Of a stretch of 54,395 nt of DNA, positions 12,234 to 53,379 are shown in pieces. Positions within the stretch are counted from its first letter, which is position 1, and each line of letters begins with the position of its first letter. Below the pieces are notes generated by a model that ran no database searches, was not told the origin of the DNA, and saw nothing but the letters and a program-made list of their open reading frames with translations. The translations under genes were made by a program, and so were the position numbers. Source of the DNA: a virus (lineage: Duplodnaviria; Caudoviricetes); IMG/VR virus record IMGVR_UViG_3300032006_000010, positions 1 through 54,395 of that record; one strand, written 5' to 3'.

Positions 12234-12403
12234 TATTTTCTAAACATCTTTACTACCGCAATCTTTAGTGCTGCACAAACAATAATGATTAAGAGTACTG
12301 TAGCAATATCAACAAAATGGTTACCCGAATCAGATTCAATGGTTCCATAAGGAGTTTCTATTGAAATCTTTTCTTGACGTTCTCTTACTGCTGTCTTCTG
12401 CAT
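12233..12403 (-). CDS. Small single-TM protein (56 aa), not in ORF track
   Basis: TAATG overlap with the 2908-aa gene; IATVLLIIIVCAAL hydrophobic helix. Confidence 0.5.
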   Translation of the reverse strand: MQKTAVRERQEKISIETPYGTIESDSGNHFVDIATVLLIIIVCAALKIAVVKMFRK

Positions 12404-18400: not shown

Positions 18401-21129
18401 TTATTATCAATAAAAAGGTCCCCAGATTGTCTTGTACCCATCTGTTTAGCTGCCGATTCGGGTATAAGCATGTGTAAATCGTTCTCTTTCATATACTTAG
18501 CGAGCTCAGCTGAAGGAGCATGCATCATATACTTACCAAGTACAGCTCCATATTCTGCGTTAGGCGCTACAATAAAGGACTTGTTTACATTACCACTAGT
18601 TGGCAATCCTTTATCAACATTATGAGCATCAATAATCTCTTCCCTAGCTATAATAGCACCATCAGTCATCTCTGTATATTCATCAGCCTTAGACTTTAGA
18701 GTTATTTTCTTCTGGTCATAATACCCATCTGCGTCCTTGAAAAACCCTACCCGGTAATTCCTTCCACCAATAACGTTAACACCCCTATCTTTTAAATAGG
18801 TGAAAACGAAATTAGGATTAGCTGATAGACCTGTATTAAACCAAATCTGCGCTCTTTTATTATAAGCCTTAGCATTATTAATCATACCCTTAGCAAGAAC
18901 CTTGCCCATATTAAGTTCTATCTCTTTTGGCTTAGTCCCAGAACTAAAACCATTAAAGGTCATGTCGTACAAAACATTAGACACATACATTTGTCTGTAT
19001 CTATCTGCTGCATTCTTTAGGTTGGGGTATCTTTCTTTAAATTTCTCTAGTCCAGCACGATAATTTTTCTTTACTCCCTTTATACCGTTCTTTCTCATGG
19101 CTCTCTGTATACTATTTAGAACCTTCTTGCTTTCCTTAGGCTTGGCTGCCACCCTAGGATGTTTTCTTACAAAATACATCTTCTTATTATCACCCTTACC
19201 ACCCATATAATAGTAACCCTGTTTCCACATAGAGTCCATTAATCTGTTGTAAGCCTTGTCAATTTTTATACGAGCTTCAGAGCGAGCAATATTTTTTAAT
19301 TCTGTAGGCGTAAAGTCCTGATATTTATCTGACTTAGATTTCTTTATCCTTATTAATTCGTCCCTAGCTAAGCCTTCATGCACACGTGTTAAATCATACT
19401 CCTTATTACCCCATATCATATGGTCAAGTACTCTAAAGAAGCCCTCTTCTGGTCTAGGAGGCTCCTTAAATACAGAAACATGCTCAGCGTCATATCTATC
19501 TTCTACTACAAGTCGCTCCTGTGAGAGGTCTTTCTTATTACCCACAGCATTAGTCTTACCCTTAAGTATGCCAACTTTACCGTCAACCAATGAAATCTGG
19601 TCGACCCATTCCTTTTTCCTAGTGCTTTCCGCCCAGCGTCTCCACCAACCTGATTGCTCTTCATTTAATGTCACCCCATACTTCTTTTCAATGAACTTGG
19701 TTATCTTTTCTTCAGCACCTAAGGTTGGTTTACCATCTTTATGATGCTTTGTCCACTCAGAATATATTTCATCAGCAACTTTAATCTTTTTTATATCAGG
19801 ATTTTTAGAGGTCTCCCAAGCTTCTTTTAGATTCTGTTCAACATATCCACCTCTACCAGCTACTCTACCCGGTATATCACCAAGTTTGGCAATGTGCATA
19901 TCTAAATCATGTGGGTCTTCAAACCTTGGGTCATCTTTATAAGCATCTCTATAGGATTTTAAGTCTTCCTTATTTAAACCAAACGATACTTCTCCAGTAT
20001 TCGTGTCAATGTCAGTCTTTCCTTGGTACTCCTTAGCTAGTTTGTCTATGTCCTTTATATCAATACCCTTACCACGCATTAGGTCATAGACAACATACTG
20101 TGATTCTTCTGGACCAAAGAAGTGTTTGAAATCATTCTTAACAATACCCTGCATCTCTGGAGTTAAAGTATCCCACTTAGGATTAAGCTCAGGGTCTGGT
20201 CCATGATTACCCTTGAAGGATTCGTTTAAAAACTGTCTACTAGCTCTAGTTTGATAGGGTGTTTCCTTGAAACCGAAAAAAGCACCAAGAGCATAAGCAT
20301 ATACTTGTTCTTCTGTAGTAGCATTTTGTGCTGTTGCTGGTAATCCAGTAAAAGCAGCACCAGCCATAGTTCTAGCTGTAAGGTCAGCTATCTGCCCGGG
20401 CTCCAACTTCTTTAGATTAGGACTACCATTTGGCTTTAACTGGTCTGCTGATAATCTTTTTCCAAAACCGGGAAGATTACCTATACCTCTAAAAGCACCA
20501 CCTGCTACTGCTCCAAAACCAGCACTATGAAATACCTCATCAACTCCATGAGTCCAACTTGATACCCCACTAGCTACACCAAGATGGAAAGCTCCAGAAG
20601 CCATATCTCTTAATACTCCACCCTCTGTAATAAAATTTGGTAGGTCTTTTAAGAAAGGTTGAGCAACCTTACTCACTTTCCTAGAAGCCATATCAGCGGC
20701 TTTCATAGGAACACTCTTCCCTTTTATACCTCTCAGAGTTCCAGCTAGTTTAACTGCACCAAGTGCTTTAAGTATACGAGCACCCGGCATGTAACCAACG
20801 AAGCCAGCAAGATGCCCAAGGTTTCTTGCAATTCCCTCGGCTGTGTCTCTAGGCTCACTACCGACTCCTAATTTTTCAGGCGGAAGTGTGGTAAATCCTT
20901 CCCACCACCCAGAGCCAAATTGTTTTATTGTCTTAAAAAGGAAACTGTCTTGGTGTTCCTTTGTCCTTGCAAAGGGAATAGCATAATGAGCTGCATGGTC
21001 TTCGAGGGTCTGTATATCATCATCCTTACCGTCAAACTGATAAGGTCTAAGACGATACTCAGTTATGAGATTGTCTATATCTTCCCGACTGTGCTTAGGT
21101 TGCCAGTCGGTACTCAACGGACCTGCCAA
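12403..21129 (-). CDS. Giant internal virion protein with a two-barrel (DPBB) RNA polymerase catalytic motif; putative virion RNAP
   Basis: MRVPMD...LHPRTMKALGGADLDGDKAF (DxDGD at 17413-17427); Gly/Ala-rich N-terminus; located at the end of the ejection protein cluster. Confidence 0.75.
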   Translation of the reverse strand: MAGPLSTDWQPKHSREDIDNLITEYRLRPYQFDGKDDDIQTLEDHAAHYAIPFARTKEHQDSFLFKTIKQFGSGWWEGFTTLPPEKLGVGSEPRDTAEGIARNLGHLAGFVGYMPGARILKALGAVKLAGTLRGIKGKSVPMKAADMASRKVSKVAQPFLKDLPNFITEGGVLRDMASGAFHLGVASGVSSWTHGVDEVFHSAGFGAVAGGAFRGIGNLPGFGKRLSADQLKPNGSPNLKKLEPGQIADLTARTMAGAAFTGLPATAQNATTEEQVYAYALGAFFGFKETPYQTRASRQFLNESFKGNHGPDPELNPKWDTLTPEMQGIVKNDFKHFFGPEESQYVVYDLMRGKGIDIKDIDKLAKEYQGKTDIDTNTGEVSFGLNKEDLKSYRDAYKDDPRFEDPHDLDMHIAKLGDIPGRVAGRGGYVEQNLKEAWETSKNPDIKKIKVADEIYSEWTKHHKDGKPTLGAEEKITKFIEKKYGVTLNEEQSGWWRRWAESTRKKEWVDQISLVDGKVGILKGKTNAVGNKKDLSQERLVVEDRYDAEHVSVFKEPPRPEEGFFRVLDHMIWGNKEYDLTRVHEGLARDELIRIKKSKSDKYQDFTPTELKNIARSEARIKIDKAYNRLMDSMWKQGYYYMGGKGDNKKMYFVRKHPRVAAKPKESKKVLNSIQRAMRKNGIKGVKKNYRAGLEKFKERYPNLKNAADRYRQMYVSNVLYDMTFNGFSSGTKPKEIELNMGKVLAKGMINNAKAYNKRAQIWFNTGLSANPNFVFTYLKDRGVNVIGGRNYRVGFFKDADGYYDQKKITLKSKADEYTEMTDGAIIAREEIIDAHNVDKGLPTSGNVNKSFIVAPNAEYGAVLGKYMMHAPSAELAKYMKENDLHMLIPESAAKQMGTRQSGDLFIDNKGKIGFNGEGYELPISSFRTIMSEITSDKYIKPQRLPKQMFTTLSSYGYKDVKPEVIQDMYETLSNRAFKGIPEANEMLKAYKDDPSNANLNRAINNLEDISIPKLLEMMRDPKHEKFASKAYEKILKLNNEYVEALAEEGELSRSEIQQEREVNAEFESIVQRLNRVFPEGSIGAYLHKFSRDYRMAAMRNYVVTQLTRPRMYNSATARMRPWDIGMRMKDSDISRLRDTDDIFYLDEGFKKLRIKDPLIIKGRETLENVWEDFNAGKYKANKDKVAQILHAAAMRVPMDSISGAHSLKFAGFTGVKGYGVLLHPRTMKALGGADLDGDKAFIFFGGDKSGFKQSWREMYHSQKDEYVDSKTNAEKHNKEAIDPKTGQTYGEQLAVRSKEIQQEGLHPGSQYSPYWRGFMSEGAASGRDMLGFAVTNRAAVIGAYNAIRGHTGENVAMKDIILEVKGSEVRNKNGEVATGTVWLGRGQYSIPFIMGNRRYRIVFKAKTGEEDLQRFREMARATVALGSDPMDEAGLKGIDVFSSKVLDTLFNYEIRSIKGKVSKPNPSLTKKLQDGKLDWLKGKGLHRMFFRTNSLLYGKNYTEARRWSYADISAGLEAMKFLPEGSRNTLMPLLSESLRDVNWSDNLFRHTDYKRVKALYDTHQNMTEREDWLNDILGRTTLAAPWNKFIDRIYSNRLYTREGLETIARDEEAFRRLLNETYVHKPTGEERLVMGNIDGKWRPINYGSYDYRRGYLEKLVLQGEDFLVNDMSTMASLKSITDIVGKHGIVPERISKIHADANEIKNMGVHMARRRRDRDDTLKDSAFTQNEEASKVNEMMRENFGIEDTGTAKLDQIQIDSAIRTVKKGYQSNAEKDLFDILLMGTYQRGYPKAVQEMKMRLEKKKGKKAADWKVVDMLEKQVQNTSLVRSAMNSKAVKDSNLKKFFSDYDALLSKTKTDLSKEEQELIIGEYKGREKIKSVKDDEGNLIKGEIIESSDLSEKDRTYLDDIAPFVGVNRGKVKDPELREIYHSLKGHLEHYHNLDTRNLNGLFRGLFGKNINQATKYDLKTLDRYFNEMRDGTWFKKTVDWMLGKDKGPKIRRAYYWMFPKAVDRDLMRHPGMVQWVEDVGPYKDRLGNTISGRTVRPTSTLGEIQQWAYKHQELSMQKNEEEKERFREKLNPFIRAVEDGDVLYDIAVAMRERRIIPRVLRRKYKDNNHKLTMQEMSYESHWNEVKDSYERLKGKTYRVPMEGGTRLMSGDEIIRSINDILTKQNEATYKWMRGDPDYVESWLAKGRTKDGRENFQSLQKLRKEFYAYITKKAKNNEQIPIEKFGIDGLRQITKRILLSMTPRKLMTAEEWAKVSKKLEITPFDVTGEFPSDIYYPHVSFDRKKVDIRLRGAIKNLFSDPNYTKEEKQAEARKIFYHYKQLTGDFMARDEMTDNFDVVQKVMKEYASGRSNKAKNILMSDLKKVGNQFSRSAHIGGWSRDPEAYESYMKNSVDTFYKQAMQLASRITMNNFNERFYKQTKDAKLTNDWTNFFKLYTQSAMGYPTQIPEKVMNDPRMKIKGTPYKWLADSQAKKRIDYIRKRLGIGRKRLEEWDLDQTTIDELSGVEYSQMQGWGSLEAKWQLASLLAHPKSSIANLYGGTVHTWISAGYGNLRKGRNFDYLKTNINPKWESMKDVERWIQKQGVIEEFLIYEAGLNPKIKSKKFESFLREATAKIKKDPDFSDTSLNALRKKHGVTDSIWNFAASFMRIPERMLRRDAFMAHYLQAREQFGGAIKDFDNPFLIEMAKRGVKGTQFLYSSPFRPMWANSTLGRVFSRFQLWSWNSVRFRNDTIRQAHIYGWEPGTKEFERYKRMAQADLFMMSLSSLFMYSLFENALPAPYNWFQDTADFLMGDEKEKERAFYGSIIGPFQAVTPPALRLLPPMFKWLVTGDSDKLTGYYLWTMPPFGRLIRDVVGPGGAIENPYYAITKFTGLPVMQFSKMVKDDPATHLGGRFLY

Positions 21130-25409: not shown

Positions 25410-25711
25410 TTTTTTTCCCTTAATGTGAACCCACTAGCAGAAGAGCCATCGCTCCTAATCCAACCATCATTAGTCTTTATCTCTAAAAAGTAAACCTTTT
25501 TATCCTTCACAACCCTAAATGCCCCAGATTCAGAAGTATCCTCAGGTTCCTCTACCTGTCCAGTAGGTATGTCTACTTTCTTAGCAATCTTAGAAATAGT
25601 ATACTCTAAATCAGAGTATCCACGACTATTATCGCTATTATCTCCATAATGATTAACACGTTGCCCCGTGCTTCTTACTACTGGATTAATTATTTTTCTC
25701 TTAATAGCCAT
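25406..25711 (-). CDS. Hypothetical virion-associated protein
   Basis: Translationally coupled to the 1219-aa tail gene. Confidence 0.6.
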   Translation of the reverse strand: MAIKRKIINPVVRSTGQRVNHYGDNSDNSRGYSDLEYTISKIAKKVDIPTGQVEEPEDTSESGAFRVVKDKKVYFLEIKTNDGWIRSDGSSASGFTLREKK

Positions 25712-28700
25712 TACTTTATACTCTTAGGCTTGTATACAACTCCCATAGAATAACCCCTAGCATCGCTAGCCGTAGCATCGTTCTCACCTGTAGCTTTCAT
25801 CTGTATCCAATGATTTTTATTATCAGCAGCTATAACCTTCTTTATAGTATTATTATCACCACTAGAGGAAGAACTTATATCTGTACCATTTTGCCAAGAA
25901 GTTCCATCTACTTTATAATATAGTCGTGTCCTAGGAAGGGCGTTACTATTGTTATCAATACTTGCATCAAGCTTGACATTTCTAAGCTTCTTATCCTGTG
26001 TATCGCTACCAAGGGTCAACTTTTTAGATACAAATGTCCAATTACGTTTATTAGGTCCACTAAGATACTTACATATTGTTCCGTCACTAAGTAGCAATAG
26101 GGAATGCCCATCACTAGTATAAGCACTGTCCATAACCTTGCCCGGAGTTTCCCATAGGTCCCACCTATTGTCCTGAGTATTATAAGCCCAGCACCTATTG
26201 TCGGTGTTAGTAAAGAATATAAGATAAGACTTTCTTCTAGAATCGTAACCAATAACAGAAGATTCCTTAACACTATCACTCAAACCAAGCCACCCATGAG
26301 AATCGGCTTCTAACATAGGAGTACCAACCTTCTTTATCTGCGGAGAAGCTAGATATGCATTTGTTTTATCAACCCAAAATAACCCATATGAAGTACTATA
26401 AACGCTTTTCTGCCCCATGCATCCAACGCCTTTTAAAGTATCCTCTATATACATAGACTCAGGATTTATGACAGCCATTTGCGTTGCTCCAAATACGTAG
26501 ACCTTACCCATAAACCCCGCTAATGCAGTAGGTACAAATGGCAACTGTAAAAAATCCTTAGACCAATCGAATATGGAATACTTACCCGGCTGAGAACGGA
26601 ATATAAAGTTTTCTGAATCCTCAAACTGAGTATGATTACAATTCCCAACAAATAAATAACCATTTTGTTCGGTGCTTACGGAGTAGTTCAGTGGTAGTGA
26701 GTGGATACCTTCAGATACCCCATTTATACTTCCATAAGAACCCTCTGAATAACCACTATCAATAACAGTATACTCCCATATTTGAGAAGTGCTATTCCAG
26801 TTAAATTTTACCAAGTCAATCTCTTTGACAAACCTATATAAACCATCTGGTTCAGTATCTGTTTCCAATATACTATCTGCTCTATAAAGAACTATACTTT
26901 TAACCCTTCTTGGGAGTTCTGCGCTAGCATCAATCCTTATGTTAAAGGTTATTGGTTGAGACATAACACTACCACCATCTGCAAAAGTTACATCAGCACC
27001 CATTAAAGCATTTTCTTGATAACCATCATAGACCAGAGCAACCTTGTAAAAAACCTTCTTCACAGTATCTGAACCAACCCAATTATCTGCACCAGTTTTT
27101 GCTGGAGCAGTAAATGTTAACCAATCTGTCAAGTCACCGAGTAAATTTGTAGGCTCAGTGTCTGTATCAGTCCAAGTATTACCCGCATCGGTTGCATGTT
27201 GTACTTTTATATATTTCCTAATTGTAGAGTCTGAGTATTCAGAATCATGCGGACTCATAGCAAATACCTTACTAAAAGTATTTGGTAGTCTTGGGGTTTC
27301 TATTCCGGGCCCTATAATAAAAGGATAGTCTCCCAATCTCCACCTTCTGCCGTCTCTCCAACTACCAGACCCAAGATATACGCTTTTACTATTAGGTTGG
27401 TCGTCATACTCAGCACCTATACTACCAGCTTCACCATATTTTGTGTAAACCCAAGACCTAGGATTGGGAAATATGTGAGGAAAAGTAGTTGCAATCCAAT
27501 GAGTCTGTTCCATAGACTCTTGTAACGGAGTATGGAAAGTCCTAACCCTTCTAGTGCCTGCATCTATATACATTAGCCAACTACGCATACCCGGAGAAGA
27601 ACCTTGTGAAGTTGGCATAACAACAAACTTTCTATTAACACCGCAATTAGGAGTGTTAGCTGGTGGCATATAACGATTACATATTGCTCCTCCTAACCAA
27701 TCAAACTTATCGAAAGGACTTCCTCCGGGGTAATCACGCCATGCATTATTAGAGTCGCTTGAACTGCTTATATTGTCTCGTATATGCATCAACATTGGTT
27801 GAGAAGCAACGCCAGTGGCATCTAATGGAATATTGAAGGTCGCCCAATTAACTACCCAATACGCTTTACCAGACGCAGATGTTGAATCCTGATAAACTGG
27901 ACCAAAGTAAGTATCAGCGTTTAAATCATATAACTCTTCCCATTCAGTCGCTTCAAGCAACTGACCAGTAAACATGACTGTTGGGTTTATAGTAGTTGTA
28001 TCTGTTCCATCAAGACACCCAAATACTAGATTACAATCTGCTACATGCTTCCACTTATTTTCATAGCCGTTAGTAGTTTCGGCTATATGTGTAGAGTTAT
28101 ATTGAGCGCTAGATTTCTTTAAGTAAACAAATTTTCCTGCTGCTCCGTCTTCTCCATCCCAATTAATTTTAGGAGATATTGAAACATAGGACGTTGCTGC
28201 TATTTCTCCAGCATCAGAAAGGTCATCTACGTTCTCATACTTGAACAATGGATAACTTAGTTCACCTATAGCACTAGCGGTACTAGTTGAAACAACCAAA
28301 TGAAAATCTCCAGTAGTATAATGAGTTGTGGCATGGTACTTAGTTGGAACAATTAAAAAGTCTGTAAATTTTTCCATAGCCTGTTGTTCTGGTGCATTAA
28401 GATGGATAATCTTATCTCTGTTAGCACCTTCACCTTCAACGCTACCATCATTCATACTCCAAAACTCTATGCTATTTATATATTCCTTTCCAGAAACATT
28501 CTGACCAGCGCATAAAACAGCTACACCCTTAAGTTCTCCATTTGCTGTACTAATACCAGTATCTCGTTGAGCATAATCAGGTCTAACACGTAAAGGCTGA
28601 CTTAAGCATTCAAACTTAAAAAGCTTATCATCGTCTATATTCATTACATATAGATGACTATCACCCTCCTTTATACCAATTATCAATTTAGAGCCCCCAC

Positions 28701-29370
28701 CACCATAACCATCACTTGACATTAATACAAAATCAGTGAAAGCATCTGCTTCAATAGCATCTTCTGCTTCAACAAGGTCTATCGCCTCCTGAACGATAAA
28801 CTCTGGCTTGGTAATTGTACCACTTAACCCATTGTGCGATACATATCCTGCCCACTTAGGCTTATTATTCCTGCCTGTTGCTATATATAATTCTTTATTC
28901 TTATTCTGTATATCAATACTATCAGAAGGACCAATATTAAATCTAGTATCTAACTTCTTTGGAGCTGAAGATTCATAATCCTCTATAACTCCAACCTCTC
29001 CAGACCCCTTACTAACAATAACTAAATCTTTTCTATCTGCGTGTTCTATAATACCCATATCAGTAAAAGCAGATGTTGTTTCAGATATCTTAAAATTAGG
29101 ATAAGCTATGAATGTCCAAGTATCACCATCGTTATAATCAGTTTTAGAGCCTGCAGTAAACTTTACCTTCACTCCATCACTAAGTGTTACATCGTCATCT
29201 AAAGTAATTCCAGAAACATTTGTTGCAGAACTCCAAGAGGCTCCAGCTAAACGTTTCTTCCACTGAAAAGAATCACCATCTTCATCTGTAATCTTAACAA
29301 AGAAGACAGTCTGTTTCGTTCCTGTAAAGGTTCCGCTTACAACTAGTTTATCTTCAGTATTAGTAGGCAT
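25711..29370 (-). CDS. Putative tail nozzle / stabilisation (beta-propeller-rich) protein
   Basis: Beta-rich; C-terminal GYLFVGN, GVGC, YN...RW, SKKL.LG....K motifs typical of podoviral tail tubular/nozzle proteins. Confidence 0.6.
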   Translation of the reverse strand: MPTNTEDKLVVSGTFTGTKQTVFFVKITDEDGDSFQWKKRLAGASWSSATNVSGITLDDDVTLSDGVKVKFTAGSKTDYNDGDTWTFIAYPNFKISETTSAFTDMGIIEHADRKDLVIVSKGSGEVGVIEDYESSAPKKLDTRFNIGPSDSIDIQNKNKELYIATGRNNKPKWAGYVSHNGLSGTITKPEFIVQEAIDLVEAEDAIEADAFTDFVLMSSDGYGGGGSKLIIGIKEGDSHLYVMNIDDDKLFKFECLSQPLRVRPDYAQRDTGISTANGELKGVAVLCAGQNVSGKEYINSIEFWSMNDGSVEGEGANRDKIIHLNAPEQQAMEKFTDFLIVPTKYHATTHYTTGDFHLVVSTSTASAIGELSYPLFKYENVDDLSDAGEIAATSYVSISPKINWDGEDGAAGKFVYLKKSSAQYNSTHIAETTNGYENKWKHVADCNLVFGCLDGTDTTTINPTVMFTGQLLEATEWEELYDLNADTYFGPVYQDSTSASGKAYWVVNWATFNIPLDATGVASQPMLMHIRDNISSSSDSNNAWRDYPGGSPFDKFDWLGGAICNRYMPPANTPNCGVNRKFVVMPTSQGSSPGMRSWLMYIDAGTRRVRTFHTPLQESMEQTHWIATTFPHIFPNPRSWVYTKYGEAGSIGAEYDDQPNSKSVYLGSGSWRDGRRWRLGDYPFIIGPGIETPRLPNTFSKVFAMSPHDSEYSDSTIRKYIKVQHATDAGNTWTDTDTEPTNLLGDLTDWLTFTAPAKTGADNWVGSDTVKKVFYKVALVYDGYQENALMGADVTFADGGSVMSQPITFNIRIDASAELPRRVKSIVLYRADSILETDTEPDGLYRFVKEIDLVKFNWNSTSQIWEYTVIDSGYSEGSYGSINGVSEGIHSLPLNYSVSTEQNGYLFVGNCNHTQFEDSENFIFRSQPGKYSIFDWSKDFLQLPFVPTALAGFMGKVYVFGATQMAVINPESMYIEDTLKGVGCMGQKSVYSTSYGLFWVDKTNAYLASPQIKKVGTPMLEADSHGWLGLSDSVKESSVIGYDSRRKSYLIFFTNTDNRCWAYNTQDNRWDLWETPGKVMDSAYTSDGHSLLLLSDGTICKYLSGPNKRNWTFVSKKLTLGSDTQDKKLRNVKLDASIDNNSNALPRTRLYYKVDGTSWQNGTDISSSSSGDNNTIKKVIAADNKNHWIQMKATGENDATASDARGYSMGVVYKPKSIK

Positions 29371-48419: not shown

Positions 48420-49934
48420 CTATAATGTCATCCAATCAAGTATCTTTCTAGCTTTATTTACCCCGCTTGGGTCAATGTATTTCTTTTGCCTACAAGCCTT
48501 AATTCCATCCATTGCGTAATATACAGCATCCAGTATATCATCATGTTTACCCCTTGGATAGGATAAAAACTCCTGTTGGGCTATAATATCCTCTGGTCTG
48601 AAGTAAAACTCTCCTCTAGCAAGTGGGGCTACCAAGGAAAGCAGTCTCTCGGACTTTCTTTGTCTCGGTTTTATGCCCTTTTCCAGCCCGGGTATATACA
48701 GGGACTGTTCAAGCATCATTTTTCGTACGCTAGCCCGGAGAGCTTCTTGGTAGCCCACCGTCTCTATTTTCATCCTTTTTGGATGATACTTCTTAAAAAT
48801 CTTGACGATAGTCTCTGGCTGTATTGCCGGGTCAATCTTATCACGGAGAATATCGATAATATACTTATTATTATCATTGTCAACACCCACAGTAGCAACA
48901 GCAAAGAAATCGCTACGACTAGATAGACTACTAGCAGGGTCAATGCCGCAATAGATGTCAACAGGCTTACGCTCCTCCTCGCCATCAATTGTCCGAACGA
49001 GAAGATTCTGACCGTCGACTCTCTTATAACTGTAATGATGAAGTTTAATGTATTCCGGTTTAAAGGGTGCATTGTCTGGAGATTGCGCTTCATTCATATA
49101 CTCCTGATAAAAACCATTTAGATTGCCAACAGATTCAAATTCTGCCTTAATCTGTAGAATTCTCTCCTTAGGAAAACGCTCATGCCATATACTACGACCT
49201 TTTTCATCGTATATAGCATACCAAAGAACATTCCATGCCGGAGATTCCCTAGCCCAATATAAGAAACAATCTTCAGAGATGACGGTTCCAATAAGTATTA
49301 TTCGACCATCATCGGACAAAGACGGGATAACGGCTTCGGTCATCCATTTTCTATTCTTAGCCCTGCCTTCCTGAGTGGAGGCATTTAATTCTGACTCATA
49401 ATCATCTACGATAATGAGATTAGGACGAGTATCACCTTCAAGAAACCCACGAACACGCTGACCAGTACCGACAGCCACAATACGTGCCCCATTAGCCAGA
49501 ACAATATCATTATTAGTCCATCTTTTTGCCGTCGTGGGTCCATAATCACCAAACATCGCCTTGAAATTCGCACTATTCTGGAGATGATACTTGATTCTAG
49601 AGAGGAAGTTAATGCTTTGTGACTGTGATTCCGAGATAATAACGATAAAAAGGTCCCTGTCTGATGGTTTAAAAGCGATTTTGTGGAGGGGTAGTATTAA
49701 GGAGGTCACTGTACTCTTCGCTGTCCCCCTAGGGGCTGCGATAAGTACTCGCTTTATAGTGTCATCAGACAGGGATTTATAAATTTCGTAGTGAAAAGGT
49801 GGTACATCACGGCTTAAAGCCGTAGGAAACATGGTTTTTCCGAATAAACCAATATTTTTCCTTAATTTCTTTAGGGCATTCTCTTCAGCCCATCGAGATT
49901 CAAAATCTTCAGTCTGTTTCTTCTTCTTTACCAT
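48420..49934 (-). CDS. terL: Terminase large subunit
   Basis: Walker A APRGTAKST, Walker B IIVDD, FYQEYMN, nuclease GIDPA and HDDILDA; start moved to ATG 49934 after AAGGAG. Confidence 0.93.
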   Translation of the reverse strand: MVKKKKQTEDFESRWAEENALKKLRKNIGLFGKTMFPTALSRDVPPFHYEIYKSLSDDTIKRVLIAAPRGTAKSTVTSLILPLHKIAFKPSDRDLFIVIISESQSQSINFLSRIKYHLQNSANFKAMFGDYGPTTAKRWTNNDIVLANGARIVAVGTGQRVRGFLEGDTRPNLIIVDDYESELNASTQEGRAKNRKWMTEAVIPSLSDDGRIILIGTVISEDCFLYWARESPAWNVLWYAIYDEKGRSIWHERFPKERILQIKAEFESVGNLNGFYQEYMNEAQSPDNAPFKPEYIKLHHYSYKRVDGQNLLVRTIDGEEERKPVDIYCGIDPASSLSSRSDFFAVATVGVDNDNNKYIIDILRDKIDPAIQPETIVKIFKKYHPKRMKIETVGYQEALRASVRKMMLEQSLYIPGLEKGIKPRQRKSERLLSLVAPLARGEFYFRPEDIIAQQEFLSYPRGKHDDILDAVYYAMDGIKACRQKKYIDPSGVNKARKILDWMTL

Positions 49935-50691
49935 TAGATACTGGCTCCTTGACACTTCTGGTGGCAATTAGCTTATTCTCTTCCTCATTTATATTATCTA
50001 TCAGCTTTTTCGTCTGTACAGCCTCTATCCTATCCGTTGTAGTCACTGTTTCCTTGTCTTTCATGCCATGAATCTCAAAACCATCGTTAACAAAGCCACG
50101 AATAGCGTTAACATCCTTCTTTTCCTTAGCCATATCAACGCCATCCTTCATAAGATTAATAAAATAATCTACATCAAGCATATTGTCATCTAATAATTTC
50201 TGTGCTTCGTCTCTTTTCATAGACCTAAAGTTCTCCGTTCTCATGTGTCGCCTTAATTTGCGACGTTTTCCTGCACTAACACTACCAAAAACCTTATCTA
50301 TAGCGATATCACGGTCATCTGAGATAGCTGCCCATAGTGCTAAATCCTTATAATCCTTACTATTACAGCGTACATCAAGCCATTTCTTACCAGAAAAGGT
50401 ATTATTAGCTACCCTTCCACCAGCACAGAACTTCTTATTTGGATATCTAGCATCCCACATAATATAACCAAAAGGCATGCGGTAGTAATAAGAAGGTCTA
50501 CCACTAGTATCAAGATACTCCTTCTTTTTTATTACCTTCGCTACCCAGCCGTCGTCTGTGACCGCCCAGTCTCCTGCGTCGCACTTTTGCCAGCCTTTGA
50601 ATGGTATTCCTTCTTTTTCTGCTTCTTCCTGTAGATATATCGGGTATTCCGTGACCCCCTTATCCCTATGGTTAATGGTTACTGTGTACAT
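49909..50691 (-). CDS. Putative terminase small subunit / DNA-binding protein
   Basis: Immediately upstream of and overlapping terL; positional inference. Confidence 0.5.
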   Translation of the reverse strand: MYTVTINHRDKGVTEYPIYLQEEAEKEGIPFKGWQKCDAGDWAVTDDGWVAKVIKKKEYLDTSGRPSYYYRMPFGYIMWDARYPNKKFCAGGRVANNTFSGKKWLDVRCNSKDYKDLALWAAISDDRDIAIDKVFGSVSAGKRRKLRRHMRTENFRSMKRDEAQKLLDDNMLDVDYFINLMKDGVDMAKEKKDVNAIRGFVNDGFEIHGMKDKETVTTTDRIEAVQTKKLIDNINEEENKLIATRSVKEPVSNGKEEETD

Positions 50692-51215
50692 AAATCAGGG
50701 TATAATCCACCTCATAAAAGAAAAACTACCAGTTTTGTGCTCCTTACTTAAGTCACCCGTCATCTGCGGTGTCACCCCTTAATAATTAAATCAACTACTA
50801 AAAAAAGTAAAAAAACTTAAACCCAGTTTACAAAAAAAACAATAGCTATTATTTACTTTATCGCAGAAGCGTTAAGTTTCAATATAGATGCACTTAGGTG
50901 GTGGCACCTAGTTTTGTTCAAAAGCCATATATTAAGTAGGGTTGCAAATCCAACCAAAAATTACCGTAGAATGGGAGTACGTGGTATACATTGCACCGTA
51001 CCCGTGCGTTTTTCACGGCACGGGGGTCCCTGCCCAGTTGAAACAGAACCGCTGGTTCTATTCCATCTGGTCACCCCCATCCCGCACACCGCACGTGTAC
51101 TGGCGCCCAGCCCCTGCTAGCCACTGCGTGGCAGATACGTACCCTATGCCTTTAGGCATAGCTACGTAGCCATTGAGCAATAACCCCTCAACCTTTCACG
51201 AAAGGCATCAGTCTT

Positions 51216-51557
51216 ATGGCATCAAAGAAAGTATCGATACGAGTATCGAACACTTTCCGTGGCTCCGTAGACCGACACGGTGAGTTCGTTAGGGAAGAAG
51301 ACCGAAACGGTCGTTGGATTGCATCCAACAACCTGCGTATCATATCTGATACGTCGGCTTCTTTACCCGCCGTCCTCACTGCCAAGCGTATCACGTCACT
51401 TGTAAAGCAGAAGCCTGCTCTACAAGTAACTGATGGTACGGACTATCAGCTTACCAACAAGGTAGACCTTGATGGTGACGCTGAGCGTGGCTTAGACCCT
51501 GCTACCGCATGGTATTACGCCCCGCAAAGTCCTCCCGTTACGCTTGACATCGGCTAG
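51216..51557 (+). CDS. First gene of the early arm, hypothetical
   Basis: 113-aa ORF in a locally GC-rich region; GAAAGG upstream. Confidence 0.6.
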   Translation: MASKKVSIRVSNTFRGSVDRHGEFVREEDRNGRWIASNNLRIISDTSASLPAVLTAKRITSLVKQKPALQVTDGTDYQLTNKVDLDGDAERGLDPATAWYYAPQSPPVTLDIG

Positions 51558-51691
51558 GACACGGTAGTGCATTGCGTGCTATTGGCACGTACGCATTGCA
51601 TGCTCAAACCTGTGCTTCCCCCTACACACAGTAGGGGGGACACACACAGGTCTTATTTTATCACACCCGTGAAAGGAATCAGCAATAGCTG

Positions 51692-51787
51692 ATGTATTCA
51701 ATATTTCGTAATTTCAGTAAGCTATGGTACTGCATAGTGAGTCCGGATGGTAACCCAATCGACGTAGACAACCAGACCAAAGGTTAA
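51692..51787 (+). CDS. Possible 31-aa peptide (MYSIFRNFSKLW...)
   Basis: GAAAGGA SD separated from the ATG by the hairpin ATCAGC-AATA-GCTGAT. Confidence 0.3.
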   Translation: MYSIFRNFSKLWYCIVSPDGNPIDVDNQTKG

Positions 51788-51809
51788 CACAGTTGATTAA
51801 ATCCCAAAC

Positions 51810-52840
51810 AGTAAGAGAGTAGCCCCAGCCTTAAGCTGGGGCGCTCTCGTATTCGTTACTTGTAATGAGGTCACAATTAAGTAGCTTCTTTTGTGGTTGG
51901 TTGAGGTGCTGAGGTGCAAATCCTCACGTGTAATTACAAGTAAGTATTTATCAGTCTACAGCCCTAGACGTGGGGCGGTCGTCATGGCGGCTGGGAACTA
52001 CAAAATATGGTGGTGATGTTAACAAGACCGTTCCCAACGTAGGCTGATTCTTTATTTAACCGGGGGAAGAGCGTGGACAGATGATATGTCCTGTGTCAGC
52101 AAGCACTGAATCTTCCCCTTTTTATTTTATTTAGTGAACCAAATCTAAACAGTGGCTACTGATTTCTAGAATCACACGAGTGCACATCGTGCCGGCTGAC
52201 GAGGCTGGGTAGTCCAGAACTTTATTTATTTATTGGGTGTTCTATAGTTGCAAATATAGAGCATTTTAGCAGTGTGACTGAGTGCGTTCTCGAGTTGAGG
52301 CGTAAGGTACATTCCAAGGAAGTATGTTCCGCATCGAAGTAAGTACTTAGATGAACCGAATAAGTATCGGTGGGGTGGTCAGTTGGTAAAGTTGGTGTTT
52401 CCCTCGAGAAGGGGCACTAATTAGAAAAGAAGGATTCTTCTTGCTCTGTTTACAGGCGGCTGAAAGGCTAATCCTGTGACTATGTAGACTGGTAGCTAGC
52501 CTTAAGATGGGGCTCCAGTATCATTACATGCTATAGTAGCAGCATTGACGAGGTGTACGCCTAAAGCGGAACCCAGAGATGAACCAACGACAGTTGGGTA
52601 ATGAGTGCAGAGTATCTATACTATCTTCCAAAAACACGAGGTCCTTGTATCCTCGTCATTGCTACCAAATTTATACCAAGGCTGTGGTCCAAAGTCCTGA
52701 GAGACTAGTACGGATAAACTCAGAGAGACCTGAGAATTGGGCGAGTAGTGCACCTCCACCCTAATAACAAACTCCACGGCCTTAAATGGGGTAGTATGCT
52801 GATGTAAGTCTTCCAATGGATGCATTCAGTGTACTGCCAA
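51810..52840 (+). ncRNA. Tandem array of structured RNA modules or one large ncRNA, family unassigned
   Basis: No credible ORF; more than 10 consecutive stem-closed domains separated by T-rich linkers; mismatches read as G-U pairs on the + strand. Confidence 0.6.
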
Positions 52841-52862
52841 GATATCGTGAAAGGAGGCTAAA

Positions 52863-53003
52863 ATGCCGACAGAACAAATAAACATAGTAGATAAGTATAA
52901 TAAGGAATTAGACGATTGTATTAATTCACAAATAGATGCAGATAAAATAGATGATTTTGATGCAAAAGTTCAGTGTGAAGAAATATTAGTCGAATCATTC
53001 TAA
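52863..53003 (+). CDS. Small acidic protein (46 aa), not in ORF track
   Basis: SD AAGGAGG; 13 D/E vs 4 K; TAATG overlap with the next gene. Confidence 0.6.
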   Translation: MPTEQINIVDKYNKELDDCINSQIDADKIDDFDAKVQCEEILVESF

Positions 53004-53260
53004 TGAATCCGGTTCCAACAGGCGGAGACCCAGCAAATCTGGAGTGTTCTAAATGTGGTTCAAGCAACACAGAGTTCGAAGAATACATGTCAACAGGGTA
53101 TGCAGCTCATCATCCTTATTGGATTAGGCGTAACAATCCCGTAGAAGTATCCGAATATGGCATTAAATGCCAAGATTGCGACCACGAAGAAGACCCTGAT
53201 ACGTTGGGTCTGCGCTTTGAACCAAATGACCCAGATGATGGAAACTGGGTAGGAAGGTAA
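53003..53260 (+). CDS. Zn-ribbon protein
   Basis: CSKC...CQDC. Confidence 0.7.
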   Translation: MNPVPTGGDPANLECSKCGSSNTEFEEYMSTGYAAHHPYWIRRNNPVEVSEYGIKCQDCDHEEDPDTLGLRFEPNDPDDGNWVGR

Positions 53261-53262
53261 AC

Positions 53263-53379
53263 ATGACAAAATACATACAGTTCTTAGAAAATGTTCTTGT
53301 AGTCTTTTTCTGTAGTCTTCTAACAGTAAGCATTATCTGGGGTGCAGCCAATATAGTTTGGCTTTTATGTAAGAATTAA
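53263..53379 (+). CDS. Small membrane peptide (38 aa), not in ORF track
   Basis: AGGAAGGT upstream; hydrophobic VLVVFFCSLLTVSIIWG. Confidence 0.5.
   Translation: MTKYIQFLENVLVVFFCSLLTVSIIWGAANIVWLLCKN

What the first reader, a model, noticed from the sequence alone, without database searches (positions are those of the whole stretch)
51600..52840. ~1.2 kb array of back-to-back structured RNA domains at the start of the early arm
Seen: successive closed domains, including TTACTTGTAAT/ATTACAAGTAA (51856-51943), ATCAGTCTAC/GTAGGCTGAT (51950-52048), GGGGAAGA/TCTTCCCC three-way junction (52063-52118), a four-way cloverleaf (52153-52216), GTGTTCTATA/TATAGAGCAT (52237-52264), TGACGAGG/CCTCGTCA (52546-52658) and GTAGTATGCTGA/TCAGTGTACTGC (52791-52837), often separated by TTTATTT linkers. 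G-U pairs indicate selection on + strand RNA. This is a large investment in an otherwise tightly packed genome. Inference: a new large ncRNA (compare GOLLD/ROOL classes) or a polycistron of 60-120-nt sRNAs released at U-rich linkers, perhaps decoys for host defence or RNA-binding proteins.
Basis: partly seen in the sequence, partly recalled or inferred. Interest (0 to 1): 0.78.

Follow-up and report, generated by a model that had tools for sequence, protein, structure and literature searches.

The report
Novel 430-nt structured phage RNA
Part of this gene-free stretch of a marine phage genome encodes an intricately folded RNA of about 430 bases that matches no known RNA family and turns up in ocean RNA samples, while the rest is a patchwork of stem-loop cassettes that come and go between close relatives.

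Summary
Window 51558-52862 is a mosaic.

- **Upstream end:** the terminator of a real 113-aa gene, then a conserved early promoter/RBS element and a 31-codon ORF.
- **Middle:** five closed stem-loop modules. Three end in U-runs like terminators. Relatives about 91% identical gain and lose them as cassettes; one relative carries a conserved 66-aa early gene there.
- **52235-52664:** a genuine ~430-nt structured RNA on the + strand.

Homologues of the RNA occur in three lineages of this phage group. A roughly 200-nt minimal form sits inside the tRNA array of an unrelated phage, next to RNA ligase and polynucleotide kinase genes.

The consensus fold has 110 pairs: 93.9% of cells are paired (38-43% in slid controls) and 46 pairs show compensatory changes (6-14 in controls). 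A long-range helix joins the two ends.

Contigs of 412-444 nt from metatranscriptomes of four studies cover just this RNA. Two start at 52235; none lies on 51555-52234.

Rfam 15 gives no match at E≤10. Function is unknown. My best guess is a stable trans-acting RNA of the ROOL/GOLLD or T4 species I/II kind, possibly dimerising through a palindromic apical loop.

The parts
51216..51557 (+). Conserved 113-aa gene (no family) that bounds the non-coding stretch on its upstream side
   Evidence: tblastn finds it in 23 of 80 related loci at 28-94% aa identity. No Pfam or PHROG match.
51608..51661 (+). GC-rich hairpin plus U-run: intrinsic terminator of the 113-aa gene
   Evidence: Fold -27.1 kcal/mol, z -6.2. 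Kept in L082. GC-rich inverted repeats stand at the same place in the three other relatives looked at (L009, L018, L044; read by eye).
51653..51691 (+). Conserved early promoter / 5'UTR / RBS element (core TTTTATCACACCC at 51656-51668, AAAGGA RBS)
   Evidence: The core is a single copy just downstream of the 113-aa gene in 12 further loci, not counting L001, which is the window itself. In L018 and L044 it is followed by an RBS and the ATG of a short ORF. Its function as a promoter is inferred.
51692..51787 (+). 31-codon ORF behind that RBS (uncertain gene)
   Evidence: Open in the window and in L004/L082, but most of the differences between them change the amino acid. No more distant homologue.
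51815..51848 (+). Strong hairpin
   Evidence: z -7.2. L099 keeps it through an A-U to G-U change.
51856..51943 (+). Closed module with an 11-bp closing helix; a cassette
   Evidence: z -2.0. Present in L099, absent from L082/L004. No RNA contig lies on it.
51950..52048 (+). Four-way-junction module; a cassette seen only in the window
   Evidence: z -3.5. Absent from both L099 and L082.
52062..52135 (+). Three-way-junction stem (GGGGAAGA/TCTTCCCC) followed by a long U-run: terminator-like module
   Evidence: z -2.3. Present in the window, L082 and L099, with compensatory changes in the inner hairpin. L099 has a second, similar module after its inserted gene.
52153..52234 (+). Cloverleaf-shaped four-way junction; its last hairpin (52205-52217) plus the U-rich linker is terminator-like
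   Evidence: z -1.6. Terminator scan hit. The two substitutions in L099 keep pairing. Not a tRNA by ARAGORN or Rfam.
52235..52664 (+). The ~430-nt structured RNA: P0 hairpin plus a multi-domain body closed by helix P1
   Evidence: Homologues. Covariation. RNA contigs of 412-444 nt from four studies, two of them starting at 52235. No Rfam match.
52237..52265 (+). P0 hairpin with a self-complementary apical loop (UUGCAA)
   Evidence: Stem kept with different sequences in four lineages. The loop centre is UGCA in the window, L099, L106 and L105, and UCGA within AUCGAU in L100, L103 and L104.
52267..52276 (+). P1, 5' strand of the closing helix (pairs with 52654-52664)
   Evidence: 10 pairs, 100% of cells paired, four consecutive pairs with compensatory changes (helix 2).
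52277..52377 (+). 5' domain: an invariant internal-loop hairpin (GUGACUGAGUGC ... GUAAGGUA) and a three-way junction
   Evidence: Model R1. On the 8-sequence alignment 99.6% of 257 cells are paired and 21 of 35 pairs show changes on both sides. Also present in L105.
52443..52613 (+). Central/3' domain closed by helix 12; absent from the minimal L105 form
   Evidence: Helices 12-18. L105 has about 37 nt here instead.
52639..52664 (+). Terminal hairpin and the 3' strand of P1
   Evidence: Hairpin kept as GAGG/CCUC, CAGG/CCUG, UGGG/CCCA and GGGGA/UCCCC in four lineages.
52665..52862 (+). 199-nt spacer with hairpin 52790-52838 and RBS AGGAGG 52852-52857 before the first early ORF (ATG 52863)
   Evidence: z -1.9 and -2.5. 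Of four L099 substitutions in the hairpin, two keep pairing and two break it. In L100, L103 and L104 this spacer is only about 30-40 nt.

Best explanation
The 1.3-kb ORF-poor stretch is the plastic head of the phage's early arm, not a single RNA. It holds three kinds of element.

(i) The terminator of the upstream 113-aa gene, followed by a conserved early promoter/RBS element and a tiny ORF.

(ii) A run of self-contained stem-loop modules. Three are followed by U-runs like intrinsic terminators. They behave as cassettes that are gained and lost by recombination between close relatives.

(iii) At 52235-52664, a gene for a previously uncatalogued, stable, highly structured RNA.

**Shown:**
- The RNA is read from the + strand.
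- Its 5' end is at or near G52235, right after the U-rich linker.
- It folds into an apical-palindrome hairpin (P0) and a body closed by a long-range helix (P1). The body contains an invariant 5' domain and a large central domain that can be dispensed with.
- It is found as discrete ~400-nt molecules in marine metatranscriptomes.

**Inferred:**
- It has its own sigma-70-type start. An AT-rich -10-like hexamer lies 6-7 nt upstream in each lineage.
- It accumulates early in infection and acts in trans as an RNA scaffold or sponge, rather than as a leader.
- Because its minimal form is embedded in a tRNA array beside RNA ligase 1 and polynucleotide kinase in another phage, its target is probably in tRNA/translation or RNA-repair biology.
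- The self-complementary P0 loop may let it dimerise by loop-loop kissing.
For: **Anatomy of the region.**
- The 113-aa ORF is real: 23 of 80 loci.
- The TTTTATCACACCC element is single-copy after that gene in 12 further loci. In two of the three inspected it is followed by an RBS and ATG.
- Against relatives about 91% identical, L099 lacks 51951-52052 and carries about 300 nt more between 52118 and 52144. That insert encodes a 66-aa protein found in 8 other loci.
- L082 lacks 51815-52051.

**Homologues of the RNA.**
- Block 52262-52672 is the only part of the finding with homologues outside near-identical relatives: 3 of 80 loci by nhmmer.
- 8 of the 9 metagenome loci fetched by a motif scan carry it.
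- No reading frame is kept.

**Covariation.**
- RNAalifold predicts 110 pairs, 46 of them with compensatory changes.
- 93.9% of 656 cells are paired, against 38-43% when partners are slid.
- 46 pairs have changes on both sides, against 6-14 in slid controls, and 0 of 500 shuffles reach the observed value.
- For the 5' domain with 8 sequences, 99.6% of cells are paired and 21 of 35 pairs are compensatory, against 3-7 in controls.

**Strand.** G-U content, and the X17 contig, which lies on + with a cDNA-adapter loose end before 52235 and an A-run after 52634.

**Expression.**
- 4 of 4 RNA runs from four studies carry contigs on the RNA: 52235-52634, 52235-52637, 52273-52586, and 421-431-nt contigs that match the window only over 52266-52312 and 52423-52451 and run on into unlike sequence, which I read as variant copies of the RNA.
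- 0 of 4 have any cover on 51555-52193.
- The five substitutions in the contigs that fall in stems all keep pairing. They include a U-A to C-G double change at 52340/52345.

**Context in L105.** RNA ligase (phrog_562), polynucleotide kinase (phrog_505), tRNA-Glu, the RNA, then further tRNAs.

**No known family.** Rfam 15 at gathering score and at E≤10.
Against: - **Few lineages.** Only three well-separated lineages, plus one distant and one truncated sequence, carry the covariation. Shared ancestry inflates shuffle tests. The 8-sequence alignment was fitted to the model.
- **3' end not mapped.** The two full-length RNA contigs stop at 52634-52637, before the terminal hairpin and the P1 3' strand. 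This may be oligo-dT priming on the genomic A5 run, but that is my inference.
- **Possible read-through.** One X16 contig bridges 52570-52691 and runs on, and low cover continues into the early genes. Read-through, and hence a leader role, is therefore possible.
- **Limits of contigs.** They are assemblies, not reads. Depth cannot rank genes, and DNA carry-over cannot be formally excluded.
- **Promoter only inferred.** No good -35 element is evident.
- **Weak link to function.** The tie to RNA-repair genes rests on a single contig, and the window's own phage has no Pnk or Rnl.
- **Ambiguous palindrome.** A palindromic loop is also what a perfect DNA palindrome would give.
- **Upstream modules.** Nothing supports any function for them beyond their shape.
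Confidence: 0.72

Rival explanations
1. The ~430-nt element is a cis-acting 5' leader of the early operon (a riboswitch, a protein-binding element or an attenuator). The RNA seen in metatranscriptomes is the nuclease-resistant leader fragment.
For: In L100, L103 and L104 the P1 3' strand ends only about 30-40 nt before the RBS and ATG of the first early gene. No compact terminator follows P1. An X16 contig bridges the 3' end, and low cover continues into the early genes.
Against: In L105 the homologous core lies between tRNA genes, with no protein gene downstream to regulate. In the window and in L106, 183-199 nt of unrelated sequence separate it from the first gene. I saw no conserved alternative pairing with an RBS or a terminator. 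No known riboswitch model matches.
Confidence: 0.15
2. One reading: the whole of 51600-52840 is one large RNA, or a polycistronic precursor cut at U-rich linkers into 60-120-nt sRNAs that act as decoys.
For: All modules are closed structures on the + strand separated by U-rich linkers. A conserved promoter-like element sits at the upstream end. Substitutions in four modules mostly keep pairing. The 5' end of the proven RNA abuts such a linker.
Against: Modules are individually present or absent in relatives about 91% identical, and a protein gene sits among them in L099. Three modules end in terminator-like U-runs that would break up a long transcript. No module other than the 430-nt RNA has a homologue outside near-identical relatives. 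Domain z-scores are mostly modest.
Confidence: 0.07
3. The conserved element acts at the DNA level or as a replication primer. It would be an origin region at the junction of the divergent late and early arms, with hairpins as protein-binding or cruciform sites and the RNA as an R-loop primer.
For: It sits between the divergently transcribed arms. P0 is a near-perfect DNA palindrome. The primase-helicase gene is in the same arm.
Against: Conserved G-U pairs are mismatches in DNA and on the other strand. Helices covary while their sequences diverge. The L105 copy lies inside a tRNA array. No iterons were found. GC skew changes sign around 50900-51900 rather than at the RNA itself.
Confidence: 0.04
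4. The modules are a decayed tRNA island, and the large RNA is a tRNA- or tmRNA-like derivative.
For: Two modules are four-way junctions. The L105 homologue is in a tRNA array. ARAGORN at an 80% threshold reports two weak tRNA-like folds.
Against: ARAGORN at default and -ps settings, and the Rfam tRNA and tmRNA models at E≤10, find nothing. The relaxed hit at 52583-52667 uses an acceptor stem that conflicts with the covariation-supported P1. The terminal loop is 9-10 nt in the long forms and does not match the T-loop pattern as I recall it.
Confidence: 0.02

Closest known systems
ROOL and GOLLD large ornate RNAs
   Same: Both are phage- or prophage-encoded, several hundred nucleotides long, multi-domain and of unknown function, and are often found near tRNA islands (PMC12286853, passages read). 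The minimal form of this RNA sits in a phage tRNA array. GOLLD likewise has a conserved part and a variable part. ROOL and GOLLD self-assemble, and this RNA has a self-complementary apical loop that could mediate self-association.
   Different: No match to either Rfam model at E≤10. It is smaller: about 430 nt, or about 200 nt in the minimal form. I saw no shared sequence motifs. Oligomerisation is untested. In the window it lies at the head of the early operon, not beside tRNAs.
Phage T4 species I and II stable RNAs of the tRNA gene cluster
   Same: These are small stable RNAs co-transcribed with phage tRNAs in a single precursor (PMC2330249, passages read); that their role is still unknown is recalled, not read there. 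The L105 homologue lies between tRNA-Glu and the next tRNA, only a few nucleotides from each.
   Different: blastn against 50,697 GenBank phage records, which I take to include T4-type phages, found no similarity. I made no structural comparison. The long form is three to four times larger (sizes recalled) and is not in a tRNA cluster in the window.
PeSL composite promoter-terminator cassettes of T4-type phages
   Same: This comparison concerns the upstream modules only. Both are stem-loop terminators plus AT-rich sequence that flank variable early genes and coincide with insertion/deletion boundaries between close relatives (PMC2839356 and PMC4122927, listings and abstract starts seen). In L099 a gene is bracketed by two similar GGGGGAAG...CTTCCCC modules.
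   Different: This is a different phage group with different sequences. Promoter activity is not shown. Several modules are branched junctions of 60-100 nt rather than simple hairpins.
Bacterial Y RNA / YrlA encoded beside RNA-repair genes
   Same: Both are structured ncRNAs closed by a 5'/3' helix and encoded next to RNA ligase-type repair genes (recalled from memory). In L105 the RNA is 2-3 genes from Rnl1 and Pnk.
   Different: No Rfam match. No Ro60 or RtcB gene was seen. The association rests on a single contig.

Membership tests
GOLLD RNA | Scores against the Rfam GOLLD covariance model; typical length above 800 nt with a conserved 3' region | tested here: not met
   No Rfam family matched at gathering score or at E≤10 on 50600-53000 and 52230-52675. 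The element is about 430 nt.
ROOL RNA | Scores against the Rfam ROOL covariance model | tested here: not met
   no match.
ROOL/GOLLD-like behaviour (not membership) | Homo-oligomeric RNA-only assembly | not testable with these tools
   The only lead is the self-complementary P0 loop, kept as UUGCAA or UGCA in four sequences and AUCGAU in three.
tRNA / tRNA-like | Cloverleaf recognised by ARAGORN or the Rfam tRNA model | tested here: not met
   ARAGORN at default and -ps settings finds 0 genes in 51558-52870. The Rfam tRNA model finds none at E≤10. Two hits appear only at the 80% threshold, and one of them conflicts with P1.
tmRNA | tRNA-like domain plus a tag reading frame, detected by ARAGORN or the Rfam tmRNA models | tested here: not met
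   (-m -ps80: 0 genes).
Group I / group II introns, RNase P, 6S, HEARO and other large Rfam RNAs | Match to the family's covariance model | tested here: not met
   Searches ran all 4227 models with no match. Rfam models can miss divergent members.
Intrinsic (Rho-independent) terminator (for 51608-51661, 52062-52135, 52205-52234) | GC-rich hairpin directly followed by a U-run | tested here: met
   Fold plus sequence. 52205-52217 was also found by the consensus scan. That scan overall was not enriched: 4 sites against 2.1±1.6 expected. Termination activity is untested.
PeSL-type mobile promoter-terminator cassette | Stem-loop plus early promoter at the borders of indels between close relatives | tested here: inconclusive
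   Indel borders coincide with module borders in L099 and L082. The sigma-70 scan found no + strand promoter in the region.
Structured non-coding RNA gene (generic) | Conservation without a reading frame, compensatory base changes, and transcription | tested here: met
   tblastx shows no preferred frame. Covariation. RNA contigs from four studies.
T4 species I/II-type stable RNA | Encoded within, and co-transcribed with, a phage tRNA cluster | tested here: inconclusive
   The location criterion is met for L105 only. Co-transcription and processing are untested. The window has no tRNA cluster.

The most novel reading that the evidence does not exclude
This is a new class of ornate phage RNA: a core of about 200 nt with an optional insert domain of about 230 nt. 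It is made in quantity in the ocean. It self-associates through the self-complementary P0 apical loop, as ROOL, GOLLD and OLE assemble. It serves the phage in tRNA/translation or RNA-repair warfare with the host, for example as a decoy or scaffold against tRNA-targeting defence nucleases.
Probability: 0.2. Interest if true: 0.85.

Novelty: new variant of a known kind. Interest (0 to 1): 0.72.

Why it matters
Large, intricately folded bacterial and phage RNAs without a known job are rare, and each new class (OLE, GOLLD, ROOL, raiA) has opened a line of structural and functional work.

This one comes with unusually complete computational support for a metagenomic element:
- covariation across a long-range closing helix and most sub-helices;
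- a defined 5' end;
- expression in four independent marine metatranscriptome studies;
- a natural minimal version that marks out the essential core.

Two features give concrete, testable leads on function for a class of RNAs where such leads are usually missing. One is its position in one phage, inside a tRNA array beside tRNA-repair enzymes. The other is the palindromic apical loop kept through sequence change.

The rest of the region is a clear example of cassette-wise turnover at the head of a phage early operon.

Tried and rejected
**Searches for more relatives**
- GenBank phages (50,697 records), blastn distant mode: no match for 50700-52860 or for L105:1000-2400.
- IMG/VR motif scans. 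The 5' motif found only the three contigs already known. A 3'-domain motif gave 6 new loci, none matching model R1, so they are chance hits.
- GTDB genome contigs: one hit, in a Cytophagales MAG, at 11 bits and E 0.16. I take it as chance.
- Relatives of the L105 Pnk gene: one locus, no R1 match with filters off.
- L102 from the metagenome scan did not match R1.
- R1 with filters off found nothing in the ~1.1-kb gaps of L088 and L089 or in L094.

**Coding potential**
- 11 + strand ORFs of 18 codons or more in 51558-52870 were searched by tblastn. None is conserved beyond near-identical relatives or beyond what nucleotide identity explains.

**tRNA or tmRNA**
- Rejected; see the membership tests.

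**RNA contigs**
- There is no cover on 51555-52234 in any of the four runs, and only thin cover on 52691-53300, in X16. By the tool's own warning, a hole in contig cover proves nothing, so I do not use it against transcription of the upstream modules.
- The stop of the X17 and X18 contigs at 52634-52637 is not taken as the 3' end.

**Motifs**
- CCTTAARNTGGGG: 2 matches against 0.53 expected, with 11 of 100 shuffles reaching that number.
- KTGCAAAT: 7 matches against 6 expected.
- TTTATTTWA: 3 matches against 4.25 expected.
- None is enriched window-wide.
- The sigma-70 scan found no + strand promoter in 50500-53100.

**Upstream conserved block 50940-51135**
- RNAalifold on a rough 30-sequence alignment gave no consensus structure (the script ended in an error after printing this).

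- An 11-sequence protein alignment was too divergent for locus finding, so I used a 6-sequence one.

**Literature**
- Searches turned up no description of this RNA.
- PMC10690425 predicted 8,495 candidate structured RNAs from IMG/VR intergenic regions.
Full report
**Setting.** The window is a complete 54.4-kb virus record.
- A late arm lies on the - strand (10208-50691; large terminase 48420-49967).
- An early/replication arm lies on the + strand. It starts at 52863 and continues at the left end of the window, with a Sak4-like annealing protein, a primase-helicase, a Gam-like protein and endonuclease VII.
- No cultured phage is close: the best terminase identity is 27%.
- 406 IMG/VR contigs encode a related terminase. 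I kept 80 of them as loci.

**The observation.**
- Folded one by one, the domains are closed structures, with z-scores from -1.6 to -7.2 against dinucleotide shuffles.
- In 150-nt sliding windows the finding region scores only +0.3 to -4.3. The strongest signal in the neighbourhood lies inside a coding gene.
- Rfam 15 finds nothing at gathering score in the whole window, nor at E≤10 in 50600-53000 apart from a 19-nt chance hit to an archaeal snoRNA model.

**What bounds the region.**
- ORF 51216-51557 (113 aa) is a real gene. tblastn finds it in 23 of 80 loci at 28-94% identity.
- A strong hairpin plus U-run follows it (51608-51661, z -6.2).
- Next comes a motif, TTTTATCACACCC (51656-51668), which occurs once, at the same position, in 12 further loci.
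- In two of the three relatives I inspected, this motif is followed by an AAAGGA ribosome-binding site and the ATG of a short ORF.
- I therefore read it as the early promoter/5'UTR. This is an inference.
- In the window it precedes a 31-codon ORF that is open only in near-identical relatives and changes mostly non-synonymously.

**The upstream modules are cassettes.** Two relatives about 91% identical to the window differ from it by whole modules.
- L082/L004 lacks 51815-52051.
- L099 lacks 51951-52052.
- L099 carries about 300 nt more between 52118 and 52144.
- That insert is an RBS, a 66-aa basic protein and a second GGGGGAAG...CTTCCCC stem resembling the one at 52062-52119.
- The protein is conserved in 8 other loci but absent from the window.
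- The few substitutions inside shared modules mostly keep pairing.
- No module has a homologue outside near-identical relatives.
- Three modules end in U-runs like intrinsic terminators.
- This is the behaviour described for promoter-terminator cassettes in the hyperplastic regions of T4-type phages (PMC2839356 and PMC4122927, listings and abstract starts seen). Promoter activity is not shown here.

**The real RNA: homologues.**
- Block 52262-52672 is the one part with more distant homologues: L075/L076 (71% identity) and L053.
- tblastx shows equal, stop-ridden similarity in all frames.
- A motif scan of JGI metagenome contigs returned 9 loci, 8 of which carry the element.
- Six distinct full-length sequences fall into three lineages: the window with L099 (92.7% identical), L106 (66%), and L100/L103/L104 (52%).

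**The real RNA: covariation.**
- RNAalifold predicts 110 pairs, 46 of them with compensatory changes.
- Counting that structure gives 93.9% of 656 cells paired, against 38-43% when partners are slid by 1-3 columns.
- 46 pairs change on both sides, against 6-14 in slid controls. 0 of 500 shuffles reach the observed values on four of five measures, and 6 of 500 on the fifth.
- Most telling is helix P1 (52267-76 with 52654-64), which joins the two ends. It has 10 pairs, all cells paired, and four consecutive positions that covary among the three lineages.

**The real RNA: architecture** (coordinates).
- A 5' hairpin, P0.
- An invariant internal-loop hairpin.
- A three-way junction.
- A central domain closed by helix 12.
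- A terminal hairpin next to the P1 3' strand.
- Two sub-structures (52332-70 and 52543-97) repeat the same 'CAU...AUGAAC + hairpin' pattern.

**The real RNA: strand.** 108 paired cells are G-U and five pairs are G-U in all six sequences. Pairing falls to 78.5% if the fold is read on the other strand.

**Expression.** An index search with 51200-53300 found six RNA runs that each hold a small share of the words. I laid four of them, from four studies.
- **X17:** one 444-nt contig covers 52235-52634. It lies on the + strand. A loose end before 52235 I recognise from memory as a template-switching cDNA oligo, and 17 A's follow 52634.
- **X18:** one 412-nt contig covers 52235-52637 at depth 37.7.
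- **X15:** four contigs cover 52273-52586.
- **X16:** contigs of 421 and 431 nt match the window only over 52266-52312 and 52423-52451 and run on into unlike sequence. I read them as variant copies of the RNA.
- None of the four runs has a contig on 51555-52193.
- The orf113 region is seen once at depth 2.4 (X15), and the early genes only in X16 at depth 2-3.
- Contigs cannot rank expression, and holes in their cover prove nothing. Still, four studies assembling RNA-sized pieces of just this element, two with the same start, make a discrete + strand transcript the simplest reading.
- Five substitutions in those contigs fall in stems, and all five keep pairing. 52340 with 52345 is a U-A to C-G double change.
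- The 3' end is open. The contigs stop at a genomic A5 run, which may reflect oligo-dT priming (my inference), while covariation requires the RNA to reach 52664.

**A minimal form elsewhere.** A covariance model of the 5' domain (R1) also finds L105, an unrelated metagenomic phage contig, at 40 bits and E about 1e-7 to 1e-9.
- There, P0 with the same UUGCAA loop, a six-pair P1, the 5' domain and a terminal hairpin make up about 200 nt. The central domain is absent.
- The P1 pairing in L105 was worked out by eye from a single sequence.
- With L105 and the truncated L101 added, the 5' domain shows 99.6% of 257 cells paired and 21 of 35 pairs with changes on both sides, against 3-7 in slid controls. 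This alignment was fitted to the model.
- In L105 the RNA lies between tRNA-Glu and four further tRNAs.
- Two small ORFs upstream are a polynucleotide kinase (phrog_505, E 1e-83) and an RNA ligase 1 (phrog_562, E 1e-67). From memory, this is the pair that repairs nuclease-cut tRNA in T4.

**How it probably works.**
- *Shown:* a conserved, covarying, transcribed, closed multi-domain RNA on the + strand.
- *Inferred, own start:* it has its own start at G52235, with an AT-rich -10-like hexamer 6-7 nt upstream in each lineage.
- *Inferred, trans action:* it acts in trans, because the core also occurs among tRNAs with no gene to regulate.
- *Inferred, target:* its partners lie in tRNA, translation or RNA-repair biology. 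This rests on a single context.
- *Inferred, self-association:* it may dimerise. The centre of the P0 loop stays self-complementary while changing sequence: UUGCAA or UGCA in the window, L099, L106 and L105, and AUCGAU in L100, L103 and L104. The loose end of one X16 contig holds a different 10-letter palindrome at the same place.
- In the window and in L099 the bases flanking that centre do not pair. This argues against the centre being a mere extension of the stem. A perfect DNA palindrome would look similar, however.

**Comparison with what is known.**
- ROOL and GOLLD are encoded in phages and prophages, often near tRNA islands. They have no known function and assemble into RNA-only cages (PMC12286853, passages read).
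- T4 makes species I and II RNAs from its tRNA-cluster precursor (PMC2330249, passages read).
- This RNA works, or at least sits, like these, but it is a member of none of them. It fails every Rfam model and has no blastn similarity to any GenBank phage.
- I found no description of it in five literature searches.
- I could not check the supplementary lists of an IMG/VR-wide screen for candidate structured RNAs (PMC10690425).

**Limits.**
- There are few independent lineages.
- The evidence from RNA libraries is assemblies rather than reads.
- The 3' end is unmapped and the host is unknown.
- There is no functional evidence.
- The upstream modules remain shapes with no demonstrated role.

Noticed in passing
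window 50940-51135: A conserved non-coding block upstream of the 113-aa gene, found by nhmmer in 51 of 80 related loci. It has near-invariant stretches (ending in a TAGAAT -10-like hexamer, a GTAC...GTAC inverted repeat, GTTGA and CCCCTGCT) separated by variable hairpins. It is probably the promoter and structured leader of the 113-aa gene, or another RNA. RNAalifold on a rough 30-sequence alignment gave no consensus.
   Followed up: partly
window 51216-51557: The 113-aa gene has no Pfam or PHROG family but is conserved across the phage group. Its mRNA region has the most extreme fold z-scores in the neighbourhood: -5 to -7.6 on both strands.
   Followed up: partly
L099:4489-4689 (- strand): A 66-aa basic early protein, bracketed by two similar terminator-like stems. 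It is conserved in 8 other related loci (47-85% identity) but missing from the window between 52118 and 52144.
   Followed up: partly
L088:4355-5458, L089:4355-5452: Sister lineages have ORF-poor gaps of about 1.1 kb at the same position (after the 113-aa gene homologue). These do not contain the RNA (R1 with filters off found nothing) and share only short blocks with each other. They may hold a different non-coding element.
   Followed up: partly
L105:1-4328: An unrelated phage contig carrying RNA ligase 1, polynucleotide kinase and an array of at least six tRNA genes, with the minimal form of the RNA embedded in the array.
   Followed up: partly
window 49781-49858 (+): ARAGORN calls a tRNA-Leu(taa) on the strand opposite to, and inside, the terminase gene. 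The Rfam tRNA model does not report it at gathering score. Probably a false positive.
   Followed up: no
window 51828-51841, 52498-52512, 52779-52792: Three near-copies of GCCTTAA..TGGGG within 1 kb. One lies inside the RNA, where it is conserved in relatives. The motif is not significantly enriched window-wide.
   Followed up: partly
window 52332-52370 and 52543-52597: Two parts of the RNA share the same sequence-structure pattern: a hairpin closed by CAU/AUG, then GAAC, then a second hairpin. This suggests an internal duplication or a recurring tertiary module.
   Followed up: no
window 12403-21129 (-) and 25711-29370 (-): Giant ORFs of 2908 aa and 1219 aa in the late arm with no PHROG match.
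   Followed up: no
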